DNA from: an uncultured Eubacteriales bacterium
Lineage (GTDB): Bacteria > Bacillota > Clostridia > Christensenellales > CAG-314
Assembly: GCA_949289125.1 (NCBI GenBank)
Contig: CASEME010000018.1
Coordinates: forward strand, 134,359-198,358
DNA: 64,000 nt
Direction: 5' to 3'
In this document: one piece after another, positions 2,335-44,378 of the stretch
Position numbering within the stretch: position 1 is the stretch's first letter
How the letters are laid out: the number at the start of each line of letters is the position of its first letter
Translations under genes and position numbers: made by a program
The notes under the pieces: generated by a model
What the model was told of the DNA's origin: nothing
What the model saw: the letters and a program-made list of their open reading frames with translations, nothing else
The model's database searches: none

Positions 2335-3528
2335 TTATTCTATAGCTTCCTGTTCTAGCTTGCAGTTGTTTGTTAACATGTATTCTGTTAACTTTACAAA
2401 TTCTGCATCTTTAATATTTTTCAATCGTTTAATATCATTTGCTGTTAGTTTTTTCCAGCTTTTTCTGTTCTCAATTAAAGTATCTATATCCATTTTATAA
2501 GGTGCAAATGCAATACCAGTCTTACTCCTTAGATGCTTTAAAATATTAATTCCACCGGCATCTATATCTCCAAAATGTGAAAAGAATAGATTTTGATTAC
2601 TATTATAAAGTTTTTTTAAAAGCATTCTTTTTGTTTGATTATGAAATCCGCCTAAATACACTACAATGCAATCTTCTTTATCAAAAGTGTAAAATGTTGT
2701 TAAATTTTCTACAGTAATAACCTTTTTAGAGCCTATACTAATAAACTTCAAATCATTTATCATTTTGTCTGACAAACAAATTTCATATCCTAATTGCATC
2801 AAATTTATAACAACATTGTTAATTTCAAAACACACATTCCCTTTCATAATGGCATATGTAGTATTTTTTACAAGATTTTTTTCGCACAGAATTTCACAAA
2901 CTGTTTCCTCACTAAAATCGTCTATGCCACAAGTATCGTCAAATTCATATAAGATTTTTGCTATTTTTGTCTTTAATTTTTCAAACTTCTTAGAATCGCC
3001 AAATGTTTTTACGGAAAAGTCTCTAAATTTTGTTTCTTTATCCAATTTTTGTATTTCTTTTAGTCCAAGCAATATTTCATTTAGTTGATTACTTGAATCA
3101 AAATATGCTTTAGGCATAGCATATTTTTTCATTATCCATTCATTGCAAAATGACACAAAGTTGCCTATAATTCCATCTTTACTTTCTGCATTTAATATTT
3201 GACAAACTTTATTCAAATCATCAGCAGGATTGGATCGTTTGAGAAATTTATACACTTCATTTACATTTTCCACATTAAGTTCTAATGATTTAAAATAATC
3301 ATATCTATCTTTTTCAATTTTGATAAAGCCCCATTGACTGTATTGCGAGAGAATAGCGTCATTACGATCTCTATAATTATATGAGTCCCTACACACATAT
3401 GTTTCTAACTCTTTATCGTTGAGACCAAGTGAGATCTTTATATTTTTTTGACTACCTTTTTTAGACAGTACACTATTCTCATATTTGTCTAATAATCTAT
3501 TTAAAATATTCTTGCCAAAAGTTGACAT
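2335..3528 (-). CDS. jetD: Wadjet JetD (MksG-like, Toprim/DUF2220-type nuclease subunit)
   Basis: 397 aa, last gene of a four-gene operon. C-terminal Toprim-like block VITVENLTTFYTF...VYLGGFHN...FSHFGDIDAGGINIL. Sits 8 nt after jetC. Confidence 0.85.
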   Translation of the reverse strand: MSTFGKNILNRLLDKYENSVLSKKGSQKNIKISLGLNDKELETYVCRDSYNYRDRNDAILSQYSQWGFIKIEKDRYDYFKSLELNVENVNEVYKFLKRSNPADDLNKVCQILNAESKDGIIGNFVSFCNEWIMKKYAMPKAYFDSSNQLNEILLGLKEIQKLDKETKFRDFSVKTFGDSKKFEKLKTKIAKILYEFDDTCGIDDFSEETVCEILCEKNLVKNTTYAIMKGNVCFEINNVVINLMQLGYEICLSDKMINDLKFISIGSKKVITVENLTTFYTFDKEDCIVVYLGGFHNQTKRMLLKKLYNSNQNLFFSHFGDIDAGGINILKHLRSKTGIAFAPYKMDIDTLIENRKSWKKLTANDIKRLKNIKDAEFVKLTEYMLTNNCKLEQEAIE

Positions 3529-3536
3529 TATTGCTC

Positions 3537-6500
3537 CTAAGAAATATATTGTATGAATATACGGTTATTAATTTTTGTCAAACCTACTACTGTGTCCATA
3601 TATTCAGTTAGCGTAGCCATTCTTATAGAAGGAACTACTATACATAACTGAATATCCAATTTTTTGTAAAATTCCATCAACGCATTTATCCTACTTTCGT
3701 CCATGTTGTTGAAGGCTTCATCATAAATTACAGTACAAGCAGAAGTATTTTTATCGCCTAAAATTAGTTGATCAAAACATGTAGCTATTATTACATAAAA
3801 TGGTGTCTGCGTTTCGCCACCACTTTTTTCTTTATTTGTTTTGGAAAAATATGAAACATTATCATACTTATTTGTAGTTTTTATATCAAATTTCATATAA
3901 TTTCTATAATCAAGATAACGATTTAACATCTTTTCCGATTCACTACCTGACTTTTCTATTATAATTCTATCGAAAAGTCTTTTTAAAATATCTTTATCTC
4001 TTTCGTCAAGAACTTCATCAAAAAATGTATTGGCTTCTAAGAGCTTACCTGAGGTAATAATTCGATAATAATCTTTCATCTCGTCATCGTCAGAAGAAGA
4101 ATATACAAATTGATAAACCTCATCATCAATTCCAAATGGATTGTCTTTTAAATTTTTGTTTATAGACTTTAATGTATCCTTTGCGTCCTCAATTCTCTCC
4201 GAAAGTTTTGATAGAAAATCTGTCTTAAATCCGCTTTGGCATCTTTCAAACGCAACATCAGCTCTGGATTTATAATCCAACAAGCTTCTGTTTTTCAACT
4301 TATTATATTCATTGACAAAATCTATTACATTTTCAATTAGAGTTGACATACTTGGAGAATACTTGCTAACATATTCTCTCATTCCCCTTTCTATTTCACT
4401 CTTCATTGCATTATTAGAATTTTGTATTTTTTGACTATCTTCCCAAACTTGTCGTAAATCATATTTTTCTTCTGTTACATAATTTGAACAAAATTTTTCA
4501 TAATCTATTTTATCCAGTTTTTGACAAACCTTTGAATATTCTTCACTTTGTGTTTGATAGTCGACTGTCAATTTTTTAATTTCTTCACCTATAGCACCTT
4601 GATCTCTAACTTTAATTTCTTTTTGATGTTCTTCTTCATTTATCCTATTATTAATATTAAGAAGTTCATTTTCTACATTTTTTAAAGTTTCGCTTATTGT
4701 AAAAATATTATCGTCTTTTTCTACTTCGTCTATTTCGGCTTGCACAACTTCACGTTCGCTCATACAAACATCTTTGGCTTTCCATAAATCTTCTATGTCA
4801 ACAATCTCTTTAATTTTTGAACTTTCAATTACTCTAATTAGCTCTTTAAGATTAATCGTTTCTTTTTCTGCTAATTCTTTTTGAGCTTTTAGATCTTCTA
4901 TTTTACCAAGTAAAATGTTTTTTCTTTTTATTATAGAGTTACTGCCGACATACGGATACTCATATATTTCAGGTTTAATATTCCTTACTGTCCTATTTTT
5001 ATATACCATGCAGGTATCAGTAATCGCTGTTTGATAATTTTTTAATTCACCTACACTATCAACACAAACAACATTACCTAATAGCATATGAGCCACAAAT
5101 CGAGCATATTGATTTGTTATATTTAATTTGTTAAACAGTGTATTTTCATTTGTATCATATTCCTTTGCTCTATCACAACGCACTATACCAACGCCATAAA
5201 TATTCAAGTCAAATTTGAATTTTTCATATACTTCAAGCGCATAGTCATAATAATTAGGTTCAATGATCAAATCAAATCTTTGTGTGTTCAAATATCCTTC
5301 GATAGCATTAGCCCATCGCATATCATTTATCTCAAGATATTCACAAAGAGGGCGGACTTCGACGTCTTTTTGATAGTTCTTAAATAGTTCTCTCTTTGAT
5401 AAATCAATTAAGGTAGTTGTCCTTTTATCGTATGTATTCTTTCCCTTTTCTATTGCCTCTAATTCGTGTTGCCGTTCGTGCAAATTACTTTCTATGCTAG
5501 ATATATCTGCTTCTAATTGCAAAAGACGTCTATATTTCTCATCTTTTAAACTTTGTAAATCTTCTTTGTAACTTCTTACATGTTCTTTAAAAAGCCCAAA
5601 GTTTTTATTTTTGATATCTTCAAAAAATCTATATCTTAACCCCAAGTCTTTGATAATTATATTTTCACTTGAAATTATTTTTTCGACATTATCAATTTTT
5701 TTAGAAATTTCGTTAAGTTTAAGTTCTACGTTAGACAAACACTTTTTCTTTTCTTCAAGTACTTTGTATAATTCATTATTTACCAAGTTTATTCTCTGCG
5801 AAACATAACTTGACCTTTTGTCATCTAATTGCTTCAGTGTTTCTCTGTGAATATTTATTCCAGTGACTAACTTTTCATAATCTTTTTCTTTACTTTTAAT
5901 CTTTTTTTCTAAATCTTTTAAGTGCAAAAGAACTTTTATTGCTTCATAAAATTTCAGACGCTTTGTATTTTCATAGTATTTTTCTGCTTTATCAACAAAT
6001 GTCTCTAAAGTTTGAACTTTCTGTTCTTCTTTATCCAACTGCATTTTTATTTCTCTATAACTTCTTATTTCTTCCATCAATGCATCTATTTCTATGTTAT
6101 TATCTTTAAGGAGAAAGTTATTGACAAAAGTTGACACTTCGTTAATGGGTTTGAATGCAATAGCTTTTCTCAACAATTCTGCATATCTTTCTGGATTATC
6201 CAATTTTAATATATCACGGGCAATTGTTTTACGGCGATCCCTTTGAGAGCCATTAAGTTTAGTATCGGAAAATGCAACTTGTTTGGATTTCAAAATGTTT
6301 TTTAATTCTGAAAAATTAACTATCTTACCTTCTTGGATATAATCATTGTCACATATATGATAATTCTGTACAATGTAAAACTTTACCTTGGGCTTACCAT
6401 CATCAACGATTTCTATGGTCGCACCCAGCACCATTGGGAATTTGTCATTTTCATCTTCGTACTGCAAAGCAATATGAGATATAACATCAGCTGTATTTCT

Positions 6501-6752
6501 TAAAAATTCTTTGCCATCTCCTTCATTGCCTAACTTTCCCCTTACATAAGATTTGAGCGTTCTTTTACCATCGGCATTAGCTGCATTATTGAAACAATTA
6601 TCGTCGCCACCCGAAAGCACAAAATATATTGCATCTGTAAGCGTTGACTTTCCGCAACCATTTTCGCCCGTCAACAAAAAATTACCTTGAACCTCTACAC
6701 TAGTATTGATAAAAAAATGCCAATTAATTAATTTAATCTTCGTCAACTTCAT
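3537..6752 (-). CDS. jetC: Wadjet JetC (SMC/MukB-like ATPase)
   Basis: ~1070 aa. Walker A GENGCGKSTLTDAIYF, long coiled-coil middle, signature-like SGGETQTPFYV, Walker B VIYDEAFNNMDESR. Preferred start is ATG 6752 (GAGGAAG RBS); the ORF track start is 6776. Confidence 0.9.
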   Translation of the reverse strand: MKLTKIKLINWHFFINTSVEVQGNFLLTGENGCGKSTLTDAIYFVLSGGDDNCFNNAANADGKRTLKSYVRGKLGNEGDGKEFLRNTADVISHIALQYEDENDKFPMVLGATIEIVDDGKPKVKFYIVQNYHICDNDYIQEGKIVNFSELKNILKSKQVAFSDTKLNGSQRDRRKTIARDILKLDNPERYAELLRKAIAFKPINEVSTFVNNFLLKDNNIEIDALMEEIRSYREIKMQLDKEEQKVQTLETFVDKAEKYYENTKRLKFYEAIKVLLHLKDLEKKIKSKEKDYEKLVTGINIHRETLKQLDDKRSSYVSQRINLVNNELYKVLEEKKKCLSNVELKLNEISKKIDNVEKIISSENIIIKDLGLRYRFFEDIKNKNFGLFKEHVRSYKEDLQSLKDEKYRRLLQLEADISSIESNLHERQHELEAIEKGKNTYDKRTTTLIDLSKRELFKNYQKDVEVRPLCEYLEINDMRWANAIEGYLNTQRFDLIIEPNYYDYALEVYEKFKFDLNIYGVGIVRCDRAKEYDTNENTLFNKLNITNQYARFVAHMLLGNVVCVDSVGELKNYQTAITDTCMVYKNRTVRNIKPEIYEYPYVGSNSIIKRKNILLGKIEDLKAQKELAEKETINLKELIRVIESSKIKEIVDIEDLWKAKDVCMSEREVVQAEIDEVEKDDNIFTISETLKNVENELLNINNRINEEEHQKEIKVRDQGAIGEEIKKLTVDYQTQSEEYSKVCQKLDKIDYEKFCSNYVTEEKYDLRQVWEDSQKIQNSNNAMKSEIERGMREYVSKYSPSMSTLIENVIDFVNEYNKLKNRSLLDYKSRADVAFERCQSGFKTDFLSKLSERIEDAKDTLKSINKNLKDNPFGIDDEVYQFVYSSSDDDEMKDYYRIITSGKLLEANTFFDEVLDERDKDILKRLFDRIIIEKSGSESEKMLNRYLDYRNYMKFDIKTTNKYDNVSYFSKTNKEKSGGETQTPFYVIIATCFDQLILGDKNTSACTVIYDEAFNNMDESRINALMEFYKKLDIQLCIVVPSIRMATLTEYMDTVVGLTKINNRIFIQYIS

Positions 6753-7386
6753 TATATTCTTCCTCTTCTTTTGCAATATAAGTTTTGAGTTTATTATTTA
6801 TTAGATCTATATCATTTATTTTTACAACCATAGCTACTGTAGGAAAAATCTCTACAACATTATTCACCTCATAATTGTTTTTATCGAAATTAATCAACTT
6901 ATATTTTTTTAAATTACTAAGTGCATCTATGATCTGAGTTTTAGGAATTTTATCCTTATTCTTATAAATACCCGTATCATCTAATGCGGACAAAAGTTCA
7001 TCTATGGTTATTGATATGTTGGTATTTGCATCAATACTTTCTTTGCTTTTCAAATAATAAAACTTTCTCAGCAACACCAAAATAACTGTTTCCATTTTCT
7101 TTAATTTTACCCTGTTACGATCAGTTGTACTTTCAAGATAAAATATCTTGCGCATATCGTCATGCACAAGTTGAAATTCTATCATAGCAAAGTATGCTTG
7201 AATAATTTCTTTCATTGCCAATATAGAATAATAATCATTTTTATCTTCACTTAACTGCCCATAAACAAAGTTATATCCTATTAATTTATTACAGAGCTTG
7301 GCGAATAAATCTTTTTTCGTATCATTTAATGTATGATAAATTTCATTGAATTTTGTACATATTGTATCTTTAGAATGTGCACTCAT
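6733..7386 (-). CDS. jetB: Wadjet JetB (MukE/MksE-like, DUF4194-type)
   Basis: 217 aa with an acidic C-terminus. ATGA overlap with jetA stop, overlaps jetC start. Size and position fit the jetABCD order. Confidence 0.75.
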   Translation of the reverse strand: MSAHSKDTICTKFNEIYHTLNDTKKDLFAKLCNKLIGYNFVYGQLSEDKNDYYSILAMKEIIQAYFAMIEFQLVHDDMRKIFYLESTTDRNRVKLKKMETVILVLLRKFYYLKSKESIDANTNISITIDELLSALDDTGIYKNKDKIPKTQIIDALSNLKKYKLINFDKNNYEVNNVVEIFPTVAMVVKINDIDLINNKLKTYIAKEEEEYNEVDED

Positions 7387-8777
7387 TTCTTTTTCTCCAC
7401 AATGTAATCTGTTATTAATTTGTCCTTACAATAAAATACTTTTTGATTATATGTAATCGAATACGAAACTATTTTATTTTGACTGTATAATCCTGCTAAA
7501 AATACCTTGATTAAATCTTCGCTATCACAAATATTCATTTGCGATGCCGTCATGCTATTCCTTTCTCCTAATTGTTTACTGATAAATTTGTCAATACTTC
7601 TACAATTAAATTTTGTTTCATTAATAAATTTTTCTCTTGATTTTTTTAATTCAACTTCGGCAACAGGATCAATTACATAATCCAGTTGTGATGTTGCATT
7701 TCTTCTTCTAATTCTTGGCGTATATAAAGAATTTTCATCCAATTTACCAAAATCAAATATAGAAAACAAACCCATATCATCAACATAATCGTCACTTTGA
7801 GCAATATTTTTAAGTAGCTCAATAATCTTACCTTCAATATCAACTTCCTCATTTAACAAGAAAGCAATCTTTGACTTTGCAGTCGTTGCATATTTTGTAT
7901 TTCTTTTGTTGAGATTTTCCAAGTTGTCTTCGATATCATTAAACTGATCTAAAACATATCCCAGAGCCTCACGAAAAAAACTCTCTGCTTCTTTTTGATT
8001 TTCTTCATTAACGATTCCATTTTTTTTCTTATTGATATATTCTCCCACCATATTGGAAAAATTATCTCTTTCAAATAGTGATTTTATCTTATCTATAATT
8101 GAATGTTTATATTTAGCAGGATTATCCTTGATTCTTAAATTATCAAAAGTTTTTAAAATTACCTTATCTTGATATTCCACTAAAAATTGATCCAATATTT
8201 CCCTAGGCGTCAAGCTTTCATTTGCCAGTAGCTTTCGAATATATTTTTTTATACTTACATTTAGTCCCCTTAGCCTATCTATCAATTCTTTCGTATTTTT
8301 ATACATCTGCTCTACGATATCAGTGGAGTGAGCAGTTTGAAAATTTTTAAGGGCAGAGTAAATGCTATAAACATAACCTGTATATTCTACAGGTCTTGTA
8401 TCATTTTTTACAATTTCTTCCATTGCATTGAGAATTATAATAGCATTACTATCCATTTGATATGTTGTTTTTAATAGTTTATTATCATTTTCGTCTACTA
8501 CCCAACCATATTTCAAAAAATATCGCAATTTTTTTGATGCAATTGTTTTAATATCAGCACTTTCTATTTCACCACTTTCATCATCATAAATATTTGATGG
8601 GCAATTTTCAAGATAATCCACTAGCCATGAAAGTACCTCATCACGAGGAAACTGTTTCATTTCATTATTCATTTTAAGATTTATTAGGCATAGCAAATCA
8701 TAATTTAATCTTTTATTGATCCCCGTTAAAGGAAGAAAGAATTTCTCATTCACGAATTCAAAAAAATTTGTTGACAT
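7383..8777 (-). CDS. jetA: Wadjet JetA (MukF/MksF-like kleisin, DUF3375-type)
   Basis: ~464 aa, first gene of the operon, size and position as in jetABCD. ORF track start 8783 is a GTG; ATG at 8777 follows a GAGG. Confidence 0.75.
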   Translation of the reverse strand: MSTNFFEFVNEKFFLPLTGINKRLNYDLLCLINLKMNNEMKQFPRDEVLSWLVDYLENCPSNIYDDESGEIESADIKTIASKKLRYFLKYGWVVDENDNKLLKTTYQMDSNAIIILNAMEEIVKNDTRPVEYTGYVYSIYSALKNFQTAHSTDIVEQMYKNTKELIDRLRGLNVSIKKYIRKLLANESLTPREILDQFLVEYQDKVILKTFDNLRIKDNPAKYKHSIIDKIKSLFERDNFSNMVGEYINKKKNGIVNEENQKEAESFFREALGYVLDQFNDIEDNLENLNKRNTKYATTAKSKIAFLLNEEVDIEGKIIELLKNIAQSDDYVDDMGLFSIFDFGKLDENSLYTPRIRRRNATSQLDYVIDPVAEVELKKSREKFINETKFNCRSIDKFISKQLGERNSMTASQMNICDSEDLIKVFLAGLYSQNKIVSYSITYNQKVFYCKDKLITDYIVEKKK

Positions 8778-8950
8778 ATGCACCTCAAAAAAAATAATAC
8801 AATATTAGCCTTTTAATCTTATTACAAAACAATTTATACTTTATAATCCAATGCATTATAAATAGAACTGACAAATATAGATTTAACTTTTGTTTATATT
8901 CAAACTCTATCCTATCAATTCTCTTGGTGATATAAGTGCTTCTATATGTA

Positions 8951-10460: not shown

Positions 10461-10977
10461 TTACAACACAATTTCGTATTTATAATCCTTCATGATTATA
10501 TCTGTTCCTCTTTTCTTATATGTGCTTTCACCTACAATTTTCCCGCCACATTTTTGAGCCACACGATTGGAAGCAGTATTTCCCTGACTTACATAAATAG
10601 TCACTTTCTCAGCCCCTTGACTACGAGCATAATCTATCATTGCTTGAGCAATTTCAGTCGCATAGCCTTGACACCAAAAATTCTTATGTACGCAATAAGC
10701 AATTATCGTACACCTTTTTGTCATCACTTATCACAAAACTACATGTCCCTACCCGTTCTAGCGAATTCTTAAAAACAGGGATCAAATAGCAACATTCCTC
10801 ATCCTCGCCTAGGCCTTCTAACATCTTCAAATAGTTCTCATCTATATCTTCTTTTGCTTCATCAGGCAAATATTGTCCCATCTCTGGATTGTTCCAGATA
10901 CTATATGCCCACAAAGCATCTTCTTTAGTGTATCCTCTTAATATAAGCCTTGAAGTTTCAATATCATTTATTTTCAT
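10461..10977 (-). pseudogene. GNAT (RimJ/RimL-like) N-acetyltransferase, split by a 1-nt frameshift
   Basis: ORFs 10684-10977 (MKINDIETSRLILRGYTKEDA...) and 10461-10727 (...IAYCVHKNFWCQGYATEIAQAMIDYA...) are the N- and C-halves of one GNAT. Removing one A in GATAATTGC (~10716) restores ...KKVYDIAYCVHKNFW. Confidence 0.8.
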
Positions 10978-11283: not shown

Positions 11284-11518
11284 TAAAAAGTTGCCCCACA
11301 GAGTGAAAAGTAAAGTAAAATGAATAACGAAGTAACTTTGTTACTATGCGATACTTTCTACTTTGTGGGGTCTATATAAATAACATTGAATAACAATTTT
11401 GCGGTCTATAACTCGTGAAAAAATTTGCTGCAGGGATTTTTCTAAAAGGGCAGGTATGCGTTTTAAGAGTGAAAAATAGGGCTATTTTCCGAGTGGGTAC
11501 TTTGCCCATTTATTCTGA
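11284..11518. repeat. copy 1 of a ~235-nt structured non-coding element (direct repeat of 14005-14243)
   Basis: Aligns along its whole length with 14005-14243. Identical blocks include gttactatgcgatactttctactttgtgggg, attgaataacaattttgcggtc and atgcgttttaag. Hairpin CCCCACAGAG...CTTTGTGGGG with inner stem AGTAAC/GTTACT. Confidence 0.8.
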
Positions 11519-11519
11519 C

Positions 11520-11552
11520 AACAAAAAGACAGTAGGCATATTGACCTACTGT
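11520..11552 (-). terminator. intrinsic terminator of the TAC operon
   Basis: Stem GACAGTAGG / CCTACTGTC followed on the minus strand by TTTTT. Lies 17 nt after the chaperone stop. Confidence 0.6.
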
Positions 11553-11568
11553 CTAATATTAATTTCAA

Positions 11569-11988
11569 CTAATTGATATTATTTTGATTATCCACCAATG
11601 CATTTACATCAATTGGGGGCATTATAATCGGCACCATTGCTGGTTGTGTTGTAATAAGTGAAACTTGACTTCTAATGTAAGGGAACATTATTGCAACTGT
11701 GTTTTTCTTCAAAATCTGCTCTGCTGTTGCATCATCAATGTTTTCTGCGTCTAACTTAAAATATCCTACCGTCTGTAAATAAACCCTTAAAGTATCTTCA
11801 TCATTTGTAATAGTTGTATCTATTGTCACTCTTACTTGATTTTTATTATCTTTTTTTTCAGCATATTTTACTGATATACTAGTTTTAAATTCTGTATCTT
11901 TTGTTTTCTTTTTTAATTCATATGACATCTGCGAAAACACTAAATCCTGCATTATTAATTTACTATTTACATTGTTATTTTCTTTCAT
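11569..11988 (-). CDS. SecB-like chaperone (TAC-system chaperone)
   Basis: C-terminal NTVAIMFPYIRSQVSLITTQPAMVPIIMPPIDVNAL matches the SecB hallmark (..LFPY.R..IS.L......PP..L.P.NF.AL). Preferred start ATG 11988 with AAGGTG RBS. Confidence 0.75.
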   Translation of the reverse strand: MKENNNVNSKLIMQDLVFSQMSYELKKKTKDTEFKTSISVKYAEKKDNKNQVRVTIDTTITNDEDTLRVYLQTVGYFKLDAENIDDATAEQILKKNTVAIMFPYIRSQVSLITTQPAMVPIIMPPIDVNALVDNQNNIN

Positions 11989-12002
11989 ATAATTCACCTT
12001 AA

Positions 12003-12392
12003 TTATGAATAACAAACTTCTGTTTTTTTAGGATCAAACGAGTTAGGCACATTACCTAAATAAGTATATCTAAACTTAAAAGCATCGGAAATTTTTTCTA
12101 CGAATTCATCATTGTTAATGAATTCATTAACCACTTCAACATGGTAAACTTTGTCCAAAATGCTTTTATCTTCTCTCATGAGAGTAAGTAATACTGCACT
12201 GCTTCCTTTTATTTTGTTTTTTCCTTGTTCCCATTTTTCAATAGTCTTTTTTGTAACACCCAAAATGTTTGCTAAAGCAATTTGTGTTAAATTATAATAC
12301 TCCCTAAATTCTTTTACATAGCTGGCATCAACATTGACATTTAACCTTTTGACTACTAATTTTTTGGCACTCAATAATCTCTTTATATTCAT
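12003..12392 (-). CDS. HigA/XRE-type antitoxin with C-terminal extension
   Basis: 129 aa. HTH NLTQIALANILGVTKKTIEKWEQGKNKIKGSSAVLLTLM followed by a ~45-aa tail. Start overlaps the toxin stop (TAATG). Confidence 0.8.
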   Translation of the reverse strand: MNIKRLLSAKKLVVKRLNVNVDASYVKEFREYYNLTQIALANILGVTKKTIEKWEQGKNKIKGSSAVLLTLMREDKSILDKVYHVEVVNEFINNDEFVEKISDAFKFRYTYLGNVPNSFDPKKTEVCYS

Positions 12393-12832
12393 TAAAAAGC
12401 CTCCCGTTTACTTATATTATACTCATCTATCAGCTTTTTTAGTTTGTTCATTGCTATTTTAGATATGTTTTCATCTTCACCATGAGCATGTCTGTATATA
12501 TGTAGAATAATTGCTATATTATCTTCACGATCTACCAACGTTATAACTCTGTAACCATTAGATTTACCCTTTTTTCTATAATTATCTTCTGTTCTTATTT
12601 TGCAACATGCAATTTTATAGTTTTCATTACACTGATACAATATAGAGTAAGTTTTTGATTTTCTATTAGCTTCTATCTCCGCTTGAACATTTTGTGCTAT
12701 CCGAATGAGTTCTTTTTCATCTATGTCTTTGCAATCTTTTTTTAAATTGAAAGGAGAATTAAGTAATTGTTCACTTATGTGATCTGGGTCATAAAATACT
12801 TGAAAATTTATTTTATTTGATATATTAATCAC
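12392..12832 (-). CDS. RelE/HigB-superfamily toxin
   Basis: 146 aa. KKGKSNGYRVITLVDREDNIAIILHIYRHAHGEDENIS resembles the K.GKSGGYRVI...I.LL.IY.K core of RelE/HigB toxins. First gene of a three-gene operon. Confidence 0.7.
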   Translation of the reverse strand: MINISNKINFQVFYDPDHISEQLLNSPFNLKKDCKDIDEKELIRIAQNVQAEIEANRKSKTYSILYQCNENYKIACCKIRTEDNYRKKGKSNGYRVITLVDREDNIAIILHIYRHAHGEDENISKIAMNKLKKLIDEYNISKREAF

Positions 12833-12848
12833 TCTCCTTTAATTATTA

Positions 12849-12863
12849 CCCTATTTAATAGGG
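12849..12863. promoter_or_regulatory. perfect palindrome upstream of the toxin gene (candidate antitoxin operator)
   Basis: CCCTATT-T-AATAGGG, 17 nt upstream of the toxin start codon. Confidence 0.4.
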
Positions 12864-13064
12864 CAATAACACTATAACATATCTTAAAAGAAAAGTAAAG
12901 TATTTTTCTCAATTTAGAAATCAATCAATTACAAATACATTTCATATAAAACAATATACTAATTTTAGATAAATTCAATATTGTTGTGCCATGATAGTAA
13001 ATTATAAATTTAATTTCAGCAAATATTTAAGACTTTGTAATCTAGTTCAGTAGCTCGTAATATC

Positions 13065-13535
13065 TTAAATATTCCCTTCGTATCTAGGACGAAAATAATA
13101 ATGCATTATTGCCTCAACTAGCTCAGTTGCCGCTTTGCCTTTGTCCTCTTTAATCAAAATATTTATTCTTTGTGTATTGGTCAAAATCCATTGTTTCACC
13201 GAAATATGATCTAATTGCATACTTTGATCTTTTAACAATGATTTTGCAAAAGTGCTTGGTGCACTGCAATTATAATGATGACTTACATATCTAGCATTTG
13301 ATTTAGGATTAACTTTACCAATTTTCATCACTGTATCGCCAAAGATAAAAAAATACACTGCACCATAACCTTTAGGCAAAGTCCTAGGTTGCACATGTGG
13401 ACAAGACATATCTTCCACATAATAATCACTTTCTGTTATTGGATAACCTAAACTAATAGATATTTCTTCAACAAACTTCATTATTTTAATGATTTTACTT
13501 TTCATCTTTTTACCTTTTAGATTTTTTTTCGTCAA
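13065..13535 (-). CDS. hypothetical protein, possibly GIY-YIG-like nuclease fold
   Basis: 156 aa. GAVYFFIFGDTVMKIGKV...SNARYVSHHYN...STFAKSLL...ATELVEAIMHYYF loosely fits GIY...YIG...R...H...E spacing. Start could be the internal M at 13505. The functional call is weak. Confidence 0.4.
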   Translation of the reverse strand: MTKKNLKGKKMKSKIIKIMKFVEEISISLGYPITESDYYVEDMSCPHVQPRTLPKGYGAVYFFIFGDTVMKIGKVNPKSNARYVSHHYNCSAPSTFAKSLLKDQSMQLDHISVKQWILTNTQRINILIKEDKGKAATELVEAIMHYYFRPRYEGNI

Positions 13536-13592
13536 CTAATTTAAAAATTCTAAACTAGTTATACATACACACTATTTTACAGTACAACAGGA

Positions 13593-13937
13593 TTACCTTT
13601 TCTTCAATTTGTGAGTATTTTCTTTATGCAAATGCCCATGAAAATGTACAGAATTTTGCCTTGACTTATTCTCGCTACTAAAATTGATACTAGTAGTAGT
13701 ATTTTTAACATTCGTTTTAGGTCCATAACGCAGTTCTAAGTACGCTGCATTTTTATCTGCTCGAGCGTTAGCAATTTTTAACTTTAGATTATCACGCTTG
13801 CGATCTTCAAATAATGATGTATTCTCCATTTTGTGTTCCAATTTATTAATTTTTTTACAAGCTTGACGATACTTATCTGCAGTTTTATTTCTGAATATCA
13901 TATTATGAATCATCCTTGTGACTTTATTATAACACAT
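13593..13937 (-). CDS. hypothetical small basic protein
   Basis: 114-aa ORF (possible later start MIHNMIF), lysine/arginine-rich with a His-rich tail HFHGHLHKENTHKLKKR. Lies 57 nt upstream of the 156-aa gene. Confidence 0.4.
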   Translation of the reverse strand: MCYNKVTRMIHNMIFRNKTADKYRQACKKINKLEHKMENTSLFEDRKRDNLKLKIANARADKNAAYLELRYGPKTNVKNTTTSINFSSENKSRQNSVHFHGHLHKENTHKLKKR

Positions 13938-14004
13938 AACTATGACAACTGTTTGACATAATTTTCAATAAAATAATAATTATTTTTATATCAAATATAG
14001 ATAT

Positions 14005-14243
14005 AAAAAGTTTCCCCACAAAGGGGAAAGGTAAGGCAAATTGAGTAACGGAGTGAGGTTGTTACTATGCGATACTTTCTACTTTGTGGGGGTTATAAAA
14101 ATAATATTGAATAACAATTTTGCGGTCCGTAACTCGTGGGGAAATTTGGGGTATGGGATTTTTCTAAAAAGGCAAGTATGCGTTTTAAGGGCGAGAAATA
14201 GGGCTATTTGCCGAGTAGGCATTTTCGCCCATTTTCTTCTGAC
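14005..14243. repeat. copy 2 of the ~235-nt structured non-coding element
   Basis: See copy 1. Hairpin CCCCACAAAG...CTTTGTGGGG (14014-14090) with inner AGTAAC-11nt-GTTACT. Homology to copy 1 ends exactly at ...ctgac (14243). Confidence 0.8.
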
Positions 14244-14281
14244 TCCGTCACTCGCAGGTTCAAATCCTGCTACCCTAGCCA
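14244..14281 (+). other. tRNA 3'-end fragment (T-arm + acceptor 3' strand + discriminator + CCA), att-like
   Basis: tccgtcactc GCAGG TTCAAAT CCTGC TACCCTA G CCA. I could not fold a canonical D-arm or anticodon arm upstream, so this is not an intact tRNA gene. Confidence 0.6.
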
Positions 14282-14318
14282 CAATTCAAGCGACATTTTG
14301 TATGTCGCACACACAAAA

Positions 14319-14347
14319 AGCGTGCAAATTCTGCACGCTTTTTTTTC
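14319..14347 (+). terminator. intrinsic terminator following the tRNA-like end
   Basis: AGCGTGCA-aattc-TGCACGCT followed by T8. Confidence 0.7.
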
Positions 14348-14425: not shown

Positions 14426-14465
14426 TCCGTCACTGCGTTCCTTACAGATCCTGCTGCCATTGCCA
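14426..14465 (+). repeat. decayed second copy of the tRNA 3'-end fragment
   Basis: tccgtcactgcgttccttacagatcctgctgccattgcca versus tccgtcactcgcaggttcaaatcctgctaccctagcca. The first 9 nt, atcctgct and the terminal gcca are shared. Confidence 0.45.
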
Positions 14466-14831: not shown

Positions 14832-15444
14832 ATGAACTATCTTGACGAAATACGTGTAATATGCACCAAAGATGGTAGATGTTACATAAAGAATGACTTT
14901 TCTGCAGTTGATCCAGATGATCAAAATTCATTAAAGCCAATTAAAGAGGCATTAACAGTGCACAACCATATTTTGTTAGATCCAGACAAAAAGGTTGTTT
15001 TTGTAGAAGGAATAACCGATTACAATTATATGACGACCTTTACACAAATCCTAAACAAAAAAAGACATAGTCTTCCTGCCAATTAAAGGCGTAGGTGACA
15101 TAACTGACAGCTCCAATAAAGCTAAACAACAAGAAATTATCAAATAGCTGTTGAAAATAAGAAAAACCAAAATATTGCTAATGTTAGACGGTGATAAGGC
15201 TGGCAAAGATATGGAAAAAGCGTGCGAAGATACCGCATTACCAGCATTCAATCTATCTAAGGTTGATAGCAATTTCAAAACAATAGAAAATTTATTCGAT
15301 AAAGATGATATATCGAAGTTTGGCCTTAAAGAAAAACATGCAGGAACATCATCTTTATTAAAAAGCTTTGAAAAAGAAGATAGCTTTAGCAAAACAACTA
15401 TAGACAACTTCAAAAAACTATTCGATTATATTGATAACAACTAA
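14832..15444 (+). pseudogene. Toprim-domain (OLD / DUF4435-type) nuclease remnant
   Basis: ORFs 14832-15086 (..KKVVFVEGITDYNYM..) and 15151-15444 (..ILLMLDGDKAGKD..) carry the Toprim E and DxD motifs. They are joined only by a +1 shift at the A7 run 15057-15063, plus an in-frame TAG at 15145-15147. No N-terminal ATPase part is present. Confidence 0.6.
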
Positions 15445-44039: not shown

Positions 44040-44378
44040 TAAATAAGAGTACGGTCTGTAAGCCGAGTTCTGTTTGCGATGATTATCTATCTACGATTGT
44101 CGTCGCCGACAACCTCCAGCGAATATGTCGAGATACCGAGCAGGTATTTGTTCTCATTTCTTGCACCGAGTGGGGTTTACATGAACGCAAAGTCGCCAGT
44201 GCGTTTGTGGTCTCTTACACCTCATTTCCACCCTTACAGACAAAAGTCTGCGGTATATTTCTGTTGCACTTTCCTTAGAGTCGCCTCCACAGGGAGTTAC
44301 CCTGCACCCTTGCTCTGCGGTGCTCGGACTTTCCTCGTGAGTTGCCTCCCGCAATCATCCAACCGTCTCTTACCGCAA
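44040..44378 (-). ncRNA. rnpB: RNase P RNA
   Basis: The minus strand reads ...GAGGAAAGTCCGAGCACC..., ...GTAAGGGTGGAAATGAGGTGTAAGAGACC..., ...ACAGAACTCGGCTTACAGACCGTACTCTT. These are the universally conserved CR-I, P10-12 and CR-IV/V blocks. P1 pairing is AAGAGACGGT / ACCGTACTCTT. ORF-track entries here are spurious. Confidence 0.9.

What the first reader, a model, noticed from the sequence alone, without database searches (positions are those of the whole stretch)
14005..14281. ~235-nt conserved structured non-coding element that ends in a tRNA-like T-arm/acceptor/CCA
**Seen in sequence.**
- The element (also present at 11284-11518) contains an ~80-nt extended hairpin. The hairpin is closed by CCCCACAAAG / CTTTGTGGGG, with an inner stem AGTAAC/GTTACT.
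- The 3' arm (gttactatgcgatactttctactttgtgggg) is identical in both copies.
- The 5' arm differs yet stays complementary. An A->G change gives G.U, GGAAAG versus GAAAAG both pair opposite CTTTCT, and the loop is 11 nt versus 3 nt.
- Copy 2 continues directly into GCAGG-TTCAAAT-CCTGC + TACCCTA + G + CCA, followed by a strong terminator.
- A possible 7-bp acceptor partner TGGGGTA lies at 14147-14153. A D-arm-like GCCGAGTAGGC also exists, but no anticodon stem can be formed.
- All ORFs here are short, mutually overlapping and lack an RBS.

**Inference.** This is one of three things:
- an unrecognised structured RNA with a tRNA-like 3' domain;
- a decayed tRNA plus conserved island-end sequence;
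- arm-type recombinase binding DNA.

I could not match it to tmRNA, T-box, retron msr/msd, group II intron or omega-RNA features.
Basis: partly seen in the sequence, partly recalled or inferred. Interest (0 to 1): 0.7.

Follow-up and report, generated by a model that had tools for sequence, protein, structure and literature searches.

The report
Island end at a tRNA-Gln gene
This is most likely not a new structured RNA: it is the right-hand junction of a defence island inserted into a glutamine tRNA gene, made of the island's integrase-binding arm plus the displaced last 45 bases of the tRNA, which is an ordinary, well-understood feature.

Summary
The sequence features are real. There are two ~235-nt copies (11284-11519 and 14005-14243, 79-87% identical), each starting with a stable ~80-nt hairpin, and a 33-nt stretch is identical in both.

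The "tRNA-like T-arm/acceptor/CCA" is exactly positions 31-75 of tRNA-Gln(CUG). It matches intact genes in related Clostridia MAGs 45/45 and begins in the anticodon loop (TTCTGAC). This is the usual signature of integration by a tyrosine integrase at the anticodon loop. Copy 1 shares the element through TTCTGAC and then diverges, so it is a second, internal island-end junction.

A tyrosine-integrase clade found beside tRNA-Gln(CUG) in other gut Clostridia makes the same kind of displaced fragment, preceded by 130-300 nt non-coding arms. Those arms carry TGGGG sites at -99/-89 from the crossover. The base of the hairpin is an inverted pair of the same motif.

Rfam and ARAGORN find nothing in the element. 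With two sequences there is no real covariation. No homologue of the whole element was found anywhere.

Verdict: an attR junction (P arm + overlap + displaced tRNA 3' part), with a relic copy left by tandem accretion. The role of the hairpin is not settled. Interest is low.

The parts
14005..14236 (+). Copy 2 of the conserved non-coding arm. Read as the P arm of attP, now forming the attR junction at the right end of the low-GC defence island.
   Evidence: It is homologous to 11284-11512. It lies directly 5' of the tRNA crossover point. It holds 4 of the window's 18 KTGGGGNWW sites in 232 nt.
14237..14243 (+). TTCTGAC, the tRNA-Gln anticodon loop (anticodon CTG). This is the inferred overlap or crossover region and the last bases shared by copy 1 and copy 2.
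   Evidence: tRNA identity starts at 14237. Copy 1 carries the same heptamer at 11513-11519 and then diverges.
14237..14281 (+). Displaced 3' fragment of tRNA-Gln(CUG), positions 31-75: anticodon loop, 3' anticodon stem, variable loop, T arm, 3' acceptor strand, discriminator G and CCA.
   Evidence: 45/45 identity to intact tRNA-Gln(CUG) genes in L007, L025 and L031. Local alignment score is 90, covering tRNA positions 31-75. ARAGORN finds no whole tRNA here.
14013..14092 (.). Long imperfect hairpin of copy 2. Its base is an inverted pair of the GTGGGG motif. On the - strand it is followed by AAACTTTTTAT.
   Evidence: folding, z -5.2 on the + strand and -6.7 to -7.4 on the - strand. (terminator-like site on the - strand at 14029-14011). 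(motif sites).
14011..14019 (-). Inverted arm-type-like site GTGGGGAAA, forming the 5' base of the hairpin.
   Evidence: It has the same motif as the -100 site and as the L087a sites.
14086..14094 (+). Arm-type-like site GTGGGGGTT(ATAA), 150 nt before the crossover, forming the 3' base of the hairpin.
   Evidence: It resembles GTGGGGTTATAA in the L095 arm.
14136..14154 (+). Tandem pair of arm-type-like sites, GTGGGGAAA and TTGGGGTAT, 10 bp apart at -100 and -90 from the crossover.
   Evidence: The same spacing and distance (-99/-89) occur in the arms of L087a and L090. There is one site at -90 in L086 and sites at -89/-77 in L095. Ungapped identity to L087a peaks at offsets 0 and +1.
14315..14343 (+). 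Intrinsic terminator hairpin followed by U8, downstream of the displaced tRNA end.
   Evidence: -16.6 kcal/mol, z -5.0.
14426..14465 (+). Second, decayed tRNA-Gln 3' fragment, followed by TTTTGAG. It is a scar of an earlier integration at the same tRNA gene.
   Evidence: local alignment score 40; the best of 500 shuffles scored 28.
11284..11512 (+). Copy 1 of the arm, an internal relic junction. The -100/-90 TGGGG pair is lost (GTGAAAAAATTTGCTGCAG).
11513..11519 (+). TTCTGAC at the end of copy 1. Homology to copy 2 stops here, and no tRNA sequence follows.
11293..11371 (.). Long hairpin of copy 1. Its 5' base on the - strand reads GTGGGGCAA, the same motif as in the L077 and L086 arms.
11569..12832 (-). 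Three-gene toxin / antitoxin / SecB-like chaperone module between the two copies (RelE-like, MqsA-like HTH, SecB-like = PD-T4-9_C). This is cargo, not part of the element.
13065..13937 (-). Two small cargo genes of unknown function (156 aa and 114 aa). They are transcribed away from copy 2.

Best explanation
The finding is the attR junction of a genomic (defence) island integrated into a tRNA-Gln(CUG) gene.

**Mechanism (inferred from established knowledge of tDNA-integrating islands)**
- A tyrosine integrase recombined the element's attP with the tRNA gene inside the 7-nt anticodon loop, TTCTGAC.
- The element's own copy of the tRNA 3' part restored the gene at the far (left) end, which is outside this window.
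- The original 3' 45 nt of the tRNA, with its downstream terminator, was pushed to the right end.
- That fragment now sits directly after the element's P arm (14005-14236).

**The arm**
- It is non-coding recombination DNA.
- It carries GTGGGG/TTGGGG arm-type-like sites at -150, -100 and -90 from the crossover, plus an inverted one at about -226 (TGGGG core at -223).
- The inverted pair forms the base of the ~80-nt hairpin.

**Copy 1**
- Copy 1 (11284-11519) is the same kind of junction left inside the island by tandem accretion of a related element.
- The 2.5-kb segment to its right has no integrase and no tRNA piece after the overlap.
- Copy 1 has also lost the -100/-90 site pair, so it is a decayed, CIME-like relic.

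**The hairpin (weakest step)**
- Its best-supported role is a DNA or terminator feature at the outer edge of the arm.
- On the strand that carries int in related elements, the hairpin is followed by a U5 tract.
- It could therefore stop int-strand read-through into cargo, in the geometry of lambda tI/sib.
- This is inference only.
For: **The tRNA fragment**
- 14237-14281 equals tRNA-Gln(CUG) positions 31-75, 45/45 against intact genes in Clostridia MAGs.
- No whole tRNA lies anywhere in the window.

**Homology between the copies**
- It ends exactly after TTCTGAC.

**Independent islands with the same signature**
- L028, L040, L077 and L086-L090 have displaced fragments starting at tRNA position 31 or 32, each preceded by 130-300 nt of non-coding arm.
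- L077 and L086 show complete islands: intact tRNA-Gln, then int on the opposite strand, then cargo, arm and fragment.
- The integrase clade (PF14659 + PF22022 + PF00589) lies beside tRNA-Gln(CUG) in every locus where a tRNA was found.

**Shared sites in the arms**
- TGGGG sites lie at -100/-90 in copy 2, against -99/-89, -90 and -89/-77 in those arms.
- Ungapped identity to L087a peaks at offsets 0 and +1.
- KTGGGGNWW occurs 4 times in the 239 nt of copy 2, against 18 times in the whole 64 kb.

**Island context**
- The sequence left of 14281 is 27-31% GC, against about 40% beyond 15.7 kb.
- It encodes Wadjet and PD-T4-9-like systems, and SIR2-HerA, methyltransferases and GmrSD further left.
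- A second, decayed fragment at 14426-14465 shows repeated use of this site.

**Literature**
- Displaced tDNA fragments mark island ends, and 2083 of 3919 Islander islands have an anticodon-centred attP (PMC4383910).
- Tandem accretion and CIMEs are described in PMC5704250.
Against: - The left end of the island (intact tRNA-Gln and integrase) was not seen. The window and the ENA contig, which reaches about 9.9 kb further left, do not get there. No such integrase is encoded in the window.
- No homologue of the whole 235-nt element was found outside this strain, so arm function rests on shared short sites, not on alignable homology.
- Copy 1 is not followed by a tRNA 3' part, as a simple tandem array would predict. 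An extra deletion or a secondary-site event must be assumed.
- The inner 20 bp of the hairpin and the perfectly conserved 33-nt arm are not explained by inverted binding sites alone.
- The + strand folds better than the - strand (alifold -44.6 against -27.9 kcal/mol). This would suit a + strand RNA or single-stranded DNA.
Confidence: 0.85

Rival explanations
1. A + strand structured non-coding RNA of about 235-360 nt. It would be transcribed from the promoter-like site at 13953-13980, run through the hairpin and the tRNA 3' part, and end at the 14315-14343 terminator. The TGGGGTA/TACCCTA helix plus the T arm would give it a tRNA-like 3' domain, for example as a processing signal or as mimicry.
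For: - A near-consensus TTGACA-16-AATAAT site lies at 13953-13980, and a strong terminator lies downstream.
- The + strand folds better than the - strand, and the changes that keep pairs are G.U-type, which only work on the + strand.
- Whole-element z-scores are -3.3 and -5.7.
Against: - Rfam gives no hit in the region even at E<=10, and ARAGORN gives none.
- The tRNA piece is a verbatim displaced gene fragment.
- Copy 1 lacks the promoter position, TGGGGTA and the tRNA part.
- Outside the hairpin, more than half of the changed pairs break between the copies, and the only two-sided change flanks the hairpin base.
- TGGGGTA belongs to a site pair conserved in position in unrelated arms.
Confidence: 0.05
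2. The hairpin is a single-strand origin (sso) or an oriT-like site. It would act on single-stranded DNA when the island moves as an integrative mobilizable element.
For: - Related integrases sit next to Mob_Pre (MOBV) relaxase genes in defence-carrying elements.
- The hairpin is strand-asymmetric, with G.T-compatible changes on the + strand.
- Copy 2 contains TGCCGAG, the core of the ssoA RSB site TTATGCCGAGAAAATTT (PMC4598088; sequence).
Against: - The CS-6 motif (TAGCGT) is absent.
- The RSB-like 7-mer lies 115-130 nt beyond the hairpin, not in its arm.
- A 7-mer match is within chance expectation.
- In the related elements mob lies at the int end, not at the P-arm end.
- No relaxase is seen in the window or in the extra ~10 kb.
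Confidence: 0.05
3. Within the attR reading, the hairpin is an intrinsic terminator or sib-like retroregulator. It would act on transcripts of the int-carrying strand that cross attP in the excised circle, or that enter from the chromosome. This is compatible with the best explanation and concerns only the hairpin's role.
For: - In every related element seen, int is on the strand opposite to the tRNA and is transcribed toward it.
- On that strand both hairpins are followed by CTTTTT.
- The L077, L028 and L040 arms also start with a hairpin plus T-run on that strand.
- The cargo promoters lie just beyond the hairpin.
Against: - The U tract starts 3-4 nt after the long stem.
- An 80-nt stem is atypical for a terminator.
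- The - strand fold is weaker than the + strand fold.
- The arms of the P0133 type show no equivalent hairpin.
Confidence: 0.35

Closest known systems
attR junctions of tRNA-integrated genomic islands (Islander-type islands; anticodon-loop 'A' sublocation of tyrosine integrases, Williams 2002; PMC4383910)
   Same: - The displaced 3' tDNA fragment is identical to the gene and in the same orientation.
- It starts in the anticodon loop.
- It is preceded by non-coding element DNA and followed by chromosomal or older flank.
- The island is compositionally foreign and carries defence cargo.
   Different: - The integrase and the regenerated tRNA at the other end were not observed here.
- The arm begins with an unusually long (~80 nt) hairpin.
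Islands of the tRNA-Gln(CUG)-specific tyrosine integrase clade found here in gut Clostridia (P0127, P0133, P0230, P0200; loci L077, L086-L090, L095, L028, L040)
   Same: - Same target gene and same crossover position.
- The arm length is similar.
- TGGGG sites lie at about -100 and -90, and GTGGGGTTATAA-like and TGTGGGGCAA-like sites are shared.
- Defence or restriction-modification cargo, and tandem arrays at the site.
   Different: - The arms are not alignable by BLAST outside the short sites.
- None of those arms has the long hairpin or the 33-nt invariant stretch.
CIME / tandem accretion of integrative elements (ICESt1/ICESt3 family and IMEs; PMC5704250)
   Same: Two related att-type junctions lie in direct orientation, and between them is an integrase-less segment that carries a toxin-antitoxin module.
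   Different: - The internal junction keeps only the 7-nt overlap and lacks the target-gene 3' part.
- Its arm sites have decayed, so it is probably no longer mobilizable.
Phage lambda tI / sib hairpin beyond attP (my own knowledge; not tested here)
   Same: The hairpin lies on the far side of attP from int, about 150-230 nt from the crossover. It is oriented to act on int-strand transcripts only when attP is intact.
   Different: - No evidence of transcription, antitermination or RNase III processing.
- The U tract is not adjacent to the stem.
- The orientation of int in this island is inferred from relatives.

Membership tests
tDNA-integrated island end (attR) | A fragment identical to the 3' part of a tRNA gene, in the gene's orientation, with no 5' half. 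| tested here: met
   14237-14281 equals positions 31-75 of tRNA-Gln(CUG), 45/45. ARAGORN finds no tRNA in the window.
tDNA-integrated island end (attR) | The fragment starts at a recognised crossover sublocation (anticodon loop, T loop, or T/acceptor junction). | tested here: met
   The fragment starts at TTCTGAC, the anticodon loop. Independent fragments in L028, L040, L077 and L086-L090 start at the same place. The sublocation classes are described in PMC4383910.
tDNA-integrated island end (attR) | An intact, regenerated tRNA gene and an integrase gene at the other end of the island. | not testable with these tools
   The left end is outside the window. The ENA contig ends about 9.9 kb further left without a tRNA or int. 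The 286-kb NCBI contig's DNA was not returned.
tDNA-integrated island end (attR) | The DNA between the ends is foreign in composition and carries cargo. | tested here: met
   27-31% GC against about 40%. The cargo includes Wadjet, PD-T4-9-like, SIR2-HerA, methyltransferases and GmrSD.
P arm of attP for a heterobivalent tyrosine integrase | Repeated arm-type sites at fixed distances from the crossover, shared with elements that use related integrases. | tested here: met
   TGGGG lies at -100/-90 here, against -99/-89, -90 and -89/-77 in the L087a, L090, L086 and L095 arms. The motif is enriched: 4 sites in 239 nt against 18 in 64 kb. Binding itself was not tested.
P arm of attP for a heterobivalent tyrosine integrase | A cognate integrase with an arm-binding domain encoded by the same element. 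| not testable with these tools
   There is no integrase in the window, and the rest of the island is not available.
Structured RNA gene (any Rfam family; tRNA or tmRNA) | A match to a curated covariance model or a tRNA/tmRNA detector. | tested here: not met
   Nothing in this region reaches the gathering score, and at E<=10 there are only weak terminator-type matches. ARAGORN finds 0 genes.
Structured RNA gene (any Rfam family; tRNA or tmRNA) | Compensatory base-pair covariation across homologues. | tested here: inconclusive
   Only two sequences exist. There are 14 one-sided changes and 1 two-sided change, and 3-4 of the 8 changed hairpin pairs break on transfer. No further homologues were found.
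CIME / tandem accretion | An internal att junction of the same type, bounding a segment without an integrase. | tested here: met
   Copy 1 ends with TTCTGAC at 11513-11519. The segment 11520-14004 encodes only a TA-chaperone module and two small ORFs.
CIME / tandem accretion | The internal junction retains the target-gene fragment (a full att site). | tested here: not met
   No tRNA-Gln similarity follows 11519. A secondary deletion must be assumed.
ssoA-type single-strand origin | RSB in the hairpin arm and CS-6 (TAGCGT) in the terminal loop. | tested here: not met
   Only the 7-mer TGCCGAG is present, at 14208-14214 and outside the hairpin. TAGCGT is absent from the element (sequence; motifs from PMC4598088).

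The most novel reading that the evidence does not exclude
The long hairpin at the outer edge of the arm, built on an inverted pair of integrase arm-type sites and carrying a 33-nt invariant strand, may be a functional nucleic-acid structure rather than a by-product. It could be a sib-like retroregulator or terminator that senses whether attP is intact, or a + strand RNA or single-stranded DNA element that uses the adjacent tRNA 3' half. A related oddity is that the arm-type site TTGGGGTAT is identical to the 5' end of the target tRNA gene. The integrase might therefore also read the tRNA 5' end, 30 bp from the crossover in attB/attL, as an arm site.
Probability: 0.1. Interest if true: 0.5.

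Novelty: new member of a known kind. Interest (0 to 1): 0.15.

Why it matters
It matters mainly as a correction: a candidate "novel tRNA-like structured RNA" turns out to be an ordinary island-chromosome junction.

Three modest positive points follow.
- It marks the exact right boundary (14243/14281) of a large defence island carrying Wadjet, SIR2-HerA, GmrSD, restriction-modification and PD-T4-9-like systems, in an uncultured gut Clostridia genome.
- It points to a tyrosine-integrase clade dedicated to the anticodon loop of tRNA-Gln(CUG). This clade carries defence cargo and MOBV relaxases in gut Clostridia, with a recognisable TGGGG site pair 90-100 bp from the crossover.
- It shows layered reuse of the site: a perfect fragment, a decayed fragment and an internal relic junction.

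Tried and rejected
**Searches for homologues of the element (none found)**
- Exact 21-24-mers from the invariant hairpin arm and from other conserved blocks gave no hit in viral, genome or metagenome contigs. The single hit was a high-GC chance match.
- BLAST against phages and plasmids hit only the tRNA part.
- A junction pattern, CCCAT..TTCTGACTCCGTCA, in metagenomes gave only chance hits.
- The tRNA 3'-half pattern gave nothing in viral contigs.

**Searches through neighbouring proteins**
- The 114-aa neighbour has no homologue other than itself.
- Exact-protein look-ups returned only the same strain from two ENA samples and one Logan run, at 99.98-100% identity. They gave no new variant of the element.

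**Reaching the island's left end**
- Extending the contig through the GmrSD gene failed: the ENA contig ends first, and the NCBI contig's DNA was not returned.

**Ideas rejected**
- Copy 2 as decayed tRNA 5' halves: the 10-mer GGTAAGGCAA and the 9-mer TTGGGGTAT match the tRNA 5' half more than chance allows. TTGGGGTAT is better explained as an arm-type site conserved in position in other arms. GGTAAGGCAA remains unexplained.
- ssoA: RSB and CS-6 are not present in the right places.
- Coding: the two copies differ by single-nucleotide indels, and no gene is called.
- An OLD/Toprim reading of the ORFs at 14832-15444: no Pfam or PADLOC hit.
Full report
**1. What is in the sequence**

The window holds two direct copies of a ~235-nt non-coding element, at 11284-11519 and 14005-14243. 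Identity is 79% over the first 157 nt and 87% over the next 71 nt.

Each copy opens with an ~80-nt imperfect hairpin, at 11293-11371 and 14013-14092. The hairpin is far more stable than shuffled sequence on both strands:
- + strand: -32.4 and -32.8 kcal/mol, z -6.8 and -5.2.
- - strand: -24.3 and -28.9 kcal/mol, z -5.0 and -7.4.

A 33-nt stretch of the 3' arm is identical in both copies. A Logan contig from the same sample breaks at exactly that repeat. Gene callers placed no gene in either copy in three assemblies. The copies differ by single-nucleotide indels, so the element is non-coding. The descriptive part of the finding is therefore correct.

**2. The "tRNA-like" end is a displaced piece of a real tRNA gene**

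ARAGORN finds no tRNA or tmRNA anywhere in the window. Rfam finds nothing in this region at gathering score. At E<=10 it reports only weak terminator-type matches.

A scan of one genome per species with the last 28 nt returned 43 loci from Clostridia, Christensenellaceae and Oscillospiraceae MAGs. In 41 of them the match is the 3' end of an intact tRNA-Gln(CUG), with the sequence TGGGGTATCGCCAAGCGGTAAGGCAACGGATTCTGACTCCGTCACTCGCAGGTTCAAATCCTGCTACCCTAGCCA. Of the other two, L018 is cut at the end of its block and L028 is a displaced fragment (section 4).

Window 14237-14281 equals positions 31-75 of that gene, 45/45 against L007, L025 and L031. The piece therefore covers the anticodon loop (TTCTGAC, anticodon CTG), the 3' anticodon stem, the variable loop, the T arm, the acceptor 3' strand, G73 and CCA. 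The 5' half is absent.

Copy 1 also ends with TTCTGAC (11513-11519) and then continues with unrelated sequence. The homology between the copies thus ends precisely at the 3' edge of the anticodon loop.

**3. Context**

- Everything to the left of 14281 is 27-31% GC. The DNA beyond about 15.7 kb is about 40% GC.
- The low-GC part encodes Wadjet JetABCD, a metallophosphatase, a split GNAT gene and a toxin / HTH-antitoxin / SecB-like module whose chaperone matches PD-T4-9_C.
- An ENA contig with the same sequence continues about 10 kb further left with SIR2-HerA, two methyltransferases and GmrSD.
- A second, decayed tRNA-Gln 3' fragment lies at 14426-14465, followed by TTTTGAG (alignment score 40; the best of 500 shuffles scored 28).
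- A strong terminator lies at 14315-14343.

This is the layout of an integration hot spot used more than once.

**4. Independent islands at the same tRNA show the same architecture**

- Displaced fragments that begin at tRNA position 31 or 32 occur in L028 and L040. Each is preceded by a ~200-nt conserved non-coding arm.
- A 435-aa tyrosine integrase lies about 125 nt downstream of tRNA-Gln(CUG) in L046 and L039, on the opposite strand and transcribed toward the tRNA.
- Its homologues P0127, P0133, P0230 and P0200 (PF14659 + PF22022 + PF00589) sit in the same position beside tRNA-Gln(CUG) in many gut metagenome contigs. Several lie next to a Mob_Pre relaxase and defence or restriction cargo.
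- Two loci show whole islands. L077 has the tRNA at 11504-11430, int, cargo, a ~300-nt arm and a fragment of positions 31-73 at 3978-3935. L086 has its fragment at 1173-1130.
- L087 and L088 show tandem arrays.

This matches the published rule that the regenerated tDNA and its displaced fragment mark island ends. The anticodon loop is one of the standard crossover sublocations, used by 2083 of 3919 Islander islands (PMC4383910).

**5. The arm shares positioned sites with those islands**

The arms are not alignable by BLAST. When they are anchored at the crossover, TGGGG motifs line up:

| Arm | Positions of TGGGG relative to the crossover |
|---|---|
| Window copy 2 | -150, -100, -90 |
| L087a, L090 | -99, -89 |
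| L086, L087b | -90 |
| L095 | -89, -77 |

- Ungapped identity between copy 2 and L087a over -106..-57 peaks at offsets 0 and +1: 24/50, against a mean of 14 and sd 3.5 over all offsets.
- The -150 site, GTGGGGGTTATAA, resembles GTGGGGTTATAA in L095.
- The 5' base of the hairpin read on the other strand is GTGGGGAAA in copy 2 and GTGGGGCAA in copy 1. The latter is identical to the core of TGTGGGGCAA in L077 and L086.
- KTGGGGNWW occurs 18 times in the 64-kb window on both strands. Four of these lie in the 239 nt of copy 2 and one in copy 1.
- Copy 1 has lost that pair (GTGAAAAAATTTGCTGCAG). This fits a relic that is no longer under selection.

**6. Is there an RNA?**

- The + strand consensus fold is better than the - strand fold (-44.6 against -27.9 kcal/mol). 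In the + strand fold, 14 pairs differ on one side only (A-U to G-U, or U-G to C-G), and only one pair differs on both sides.
- I transferred the minimum-energy fold of one copy to the other. In the hairpin, 3-4 of the 8 changed pairs break. In the rest of the element, 8 of 13-14 break.
- With two sequences this is no evidence of covariation.
- A near-consensus promoter-like site on the + strand (13953-13980) lies outside the conserved element and is not conserved at copy 1.
- I could find no further homologue on which to build an alignment.
- An RNA cannot be excluded, but nothing requires one.

**7. The hairpin**

Part of its complementarity follows from the inverted pair of GTGGGG sites at its base. 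The inner helices and the invariant 33-nt arm are not explained by that.

On the - strand both hairpins are followed by CTTTTT, 3-4 nt after the stem. The - strand is the int-carrying strand in every related element. The arms of L077, L028 and L040 also start with a hairpin plus T-run on that strand.

In the excised circle, int-strand transcripts would cross attP and meet this hairpin before the cargo promoters. This is the geometry of lambda tI/sib (my own knowledge). I rate this role as plausible (about 0.35) but unproven.

An ssoA-type origin was tested and not met. Only a 7-mer of RSB is present, outside the hairpin, and CS-6 is absent.

**8. Copy 1**

The segment between the copies (11520-14004) has no integrase and no tRNA piece after the overlap. 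The simplest history has three steps:
- a related element integrated at this tRNA;
- a second element integrated at the same site, giving tandem accretion as described for CIMEs and IMEs (PMC5704250);
- a deletion then removed the inner tRNA part and int.

The missing fragment is a real gap in this account.

**9. Verdict**

The finding is an attR junction: the P arm of attP, the anticodon-loop overlap and the displaced 3' 45 nt of tRNA-Gln(CUG). An internal relic copy accompanies it. It is a new member of a well-known kind. Confidence is 0.85 and interest is low (0.15).

The main unverified link is the island's left end, which lies outside all the DNA I could obtain.

Noticed in passing
L004, L005, L008, L011, L022, L023, L027, L036, L037 (e.g. 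L008 6275-6295): Many Clostridia MAGs carry a 21-nt repeat of the tRNA-Gln 3' end (CAAATCCTGCTACCCTAGCCA, from the T loop to CCA) 160-210 nt downstream of the intact gene; L029 and L038 have variants of this (L029 about 1.3 kb downstream, L038 with one mismatch). L036 and L037 have two such repeats. This looks like a widespread short scar or small element from a second class of integration at the T loop.
   Followed up: partly
window 14146-14154 versus tRNA-Gln positions -1 to 8: The arm-type-like site TTGGGGTAT is identical to the 5' end of the target tRNA gene, including the base before it. Copy 2 also contains GGTAAGGCAA (14030-14039), identical to tRNA positions 17-26. The matches exceed chance. 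The first is explained as an arm site, but the coincidence with the tRNA 5' end and the second match are unexplained.
   Followed up: partly
window 15738 / L001 1-381: The ENA contig scaffold_1098 is identical to the window up to 15738. It then continues in frame into a SusD/RagB-like sequence instead of the [FeFe]-hydrogenase-like gene of the window. One of the two assemblies is chimeric at this point.
   Followed up: partly
window 11569-12832 (-): A three-gene module: a RelE-like 146-aa protein, a MqsA-like HTH protein and a SecB-like chaperone. The chaperone matches PADLOC PD-T4-9_C (E 3.9e-15). It is a toxin-antitoxin-chaperone or PD-T4-9-like defence module.
   Followed up: partly
window 2335-8783 (-) and about 10 kb to the left (L002, L070): The island is a dense defence island: Wadjet JetA, JetB, JetC and JetD, then SIR2 + DUF87 (HerA-like), two methyltransferases, GmrSD and a pEK499_p136-like protein.
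   Followed up: partly
window 10461-10977 (-): A GNAT acetyltransferase gene is split into two overlapping ORFs (97 aa and 88 aa). It is probably a frameshifted pseudogene and lies immediately beside copy 1.
   Followed up: no
window 14048-14054 and 11327-11333; L028 5791-5797; L040 2440-2446: ACGGAGT (ACGAAGT in copy 1), the reverse complement of the tRNA core half-site ACTCCGT, lies 172-189 nt before the crossover in four arms of two otherwise unalignable arm families. It could be an extra core-type site or chance.
   Followed up: no
L028 7212-7526: A CRISPR-like array: repeats that all translate to VLVLYEITLFSN lie about 1.2 kb downstream of the displaced tRNA-Gln fragment in a Christensenellaceae MAG.
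   Followed up: no
window 44042-44370 (-): A bacterial RNase P RNA, class A (244 bits), consistent with a Clostridia-type host.
   Followed up: no
L096-L109: Integrases of this clade are commonly preceded by DUF6291 and a Mob_Pre (MOBV) relaxase. They sit beside large defence-like genes (for example MZB/DEAD helicase and MmeI-type restriction-modification). They therefore look like integrative mobilizable elements specialised for tRNA-Gln(CUG).
   Followed up: partly
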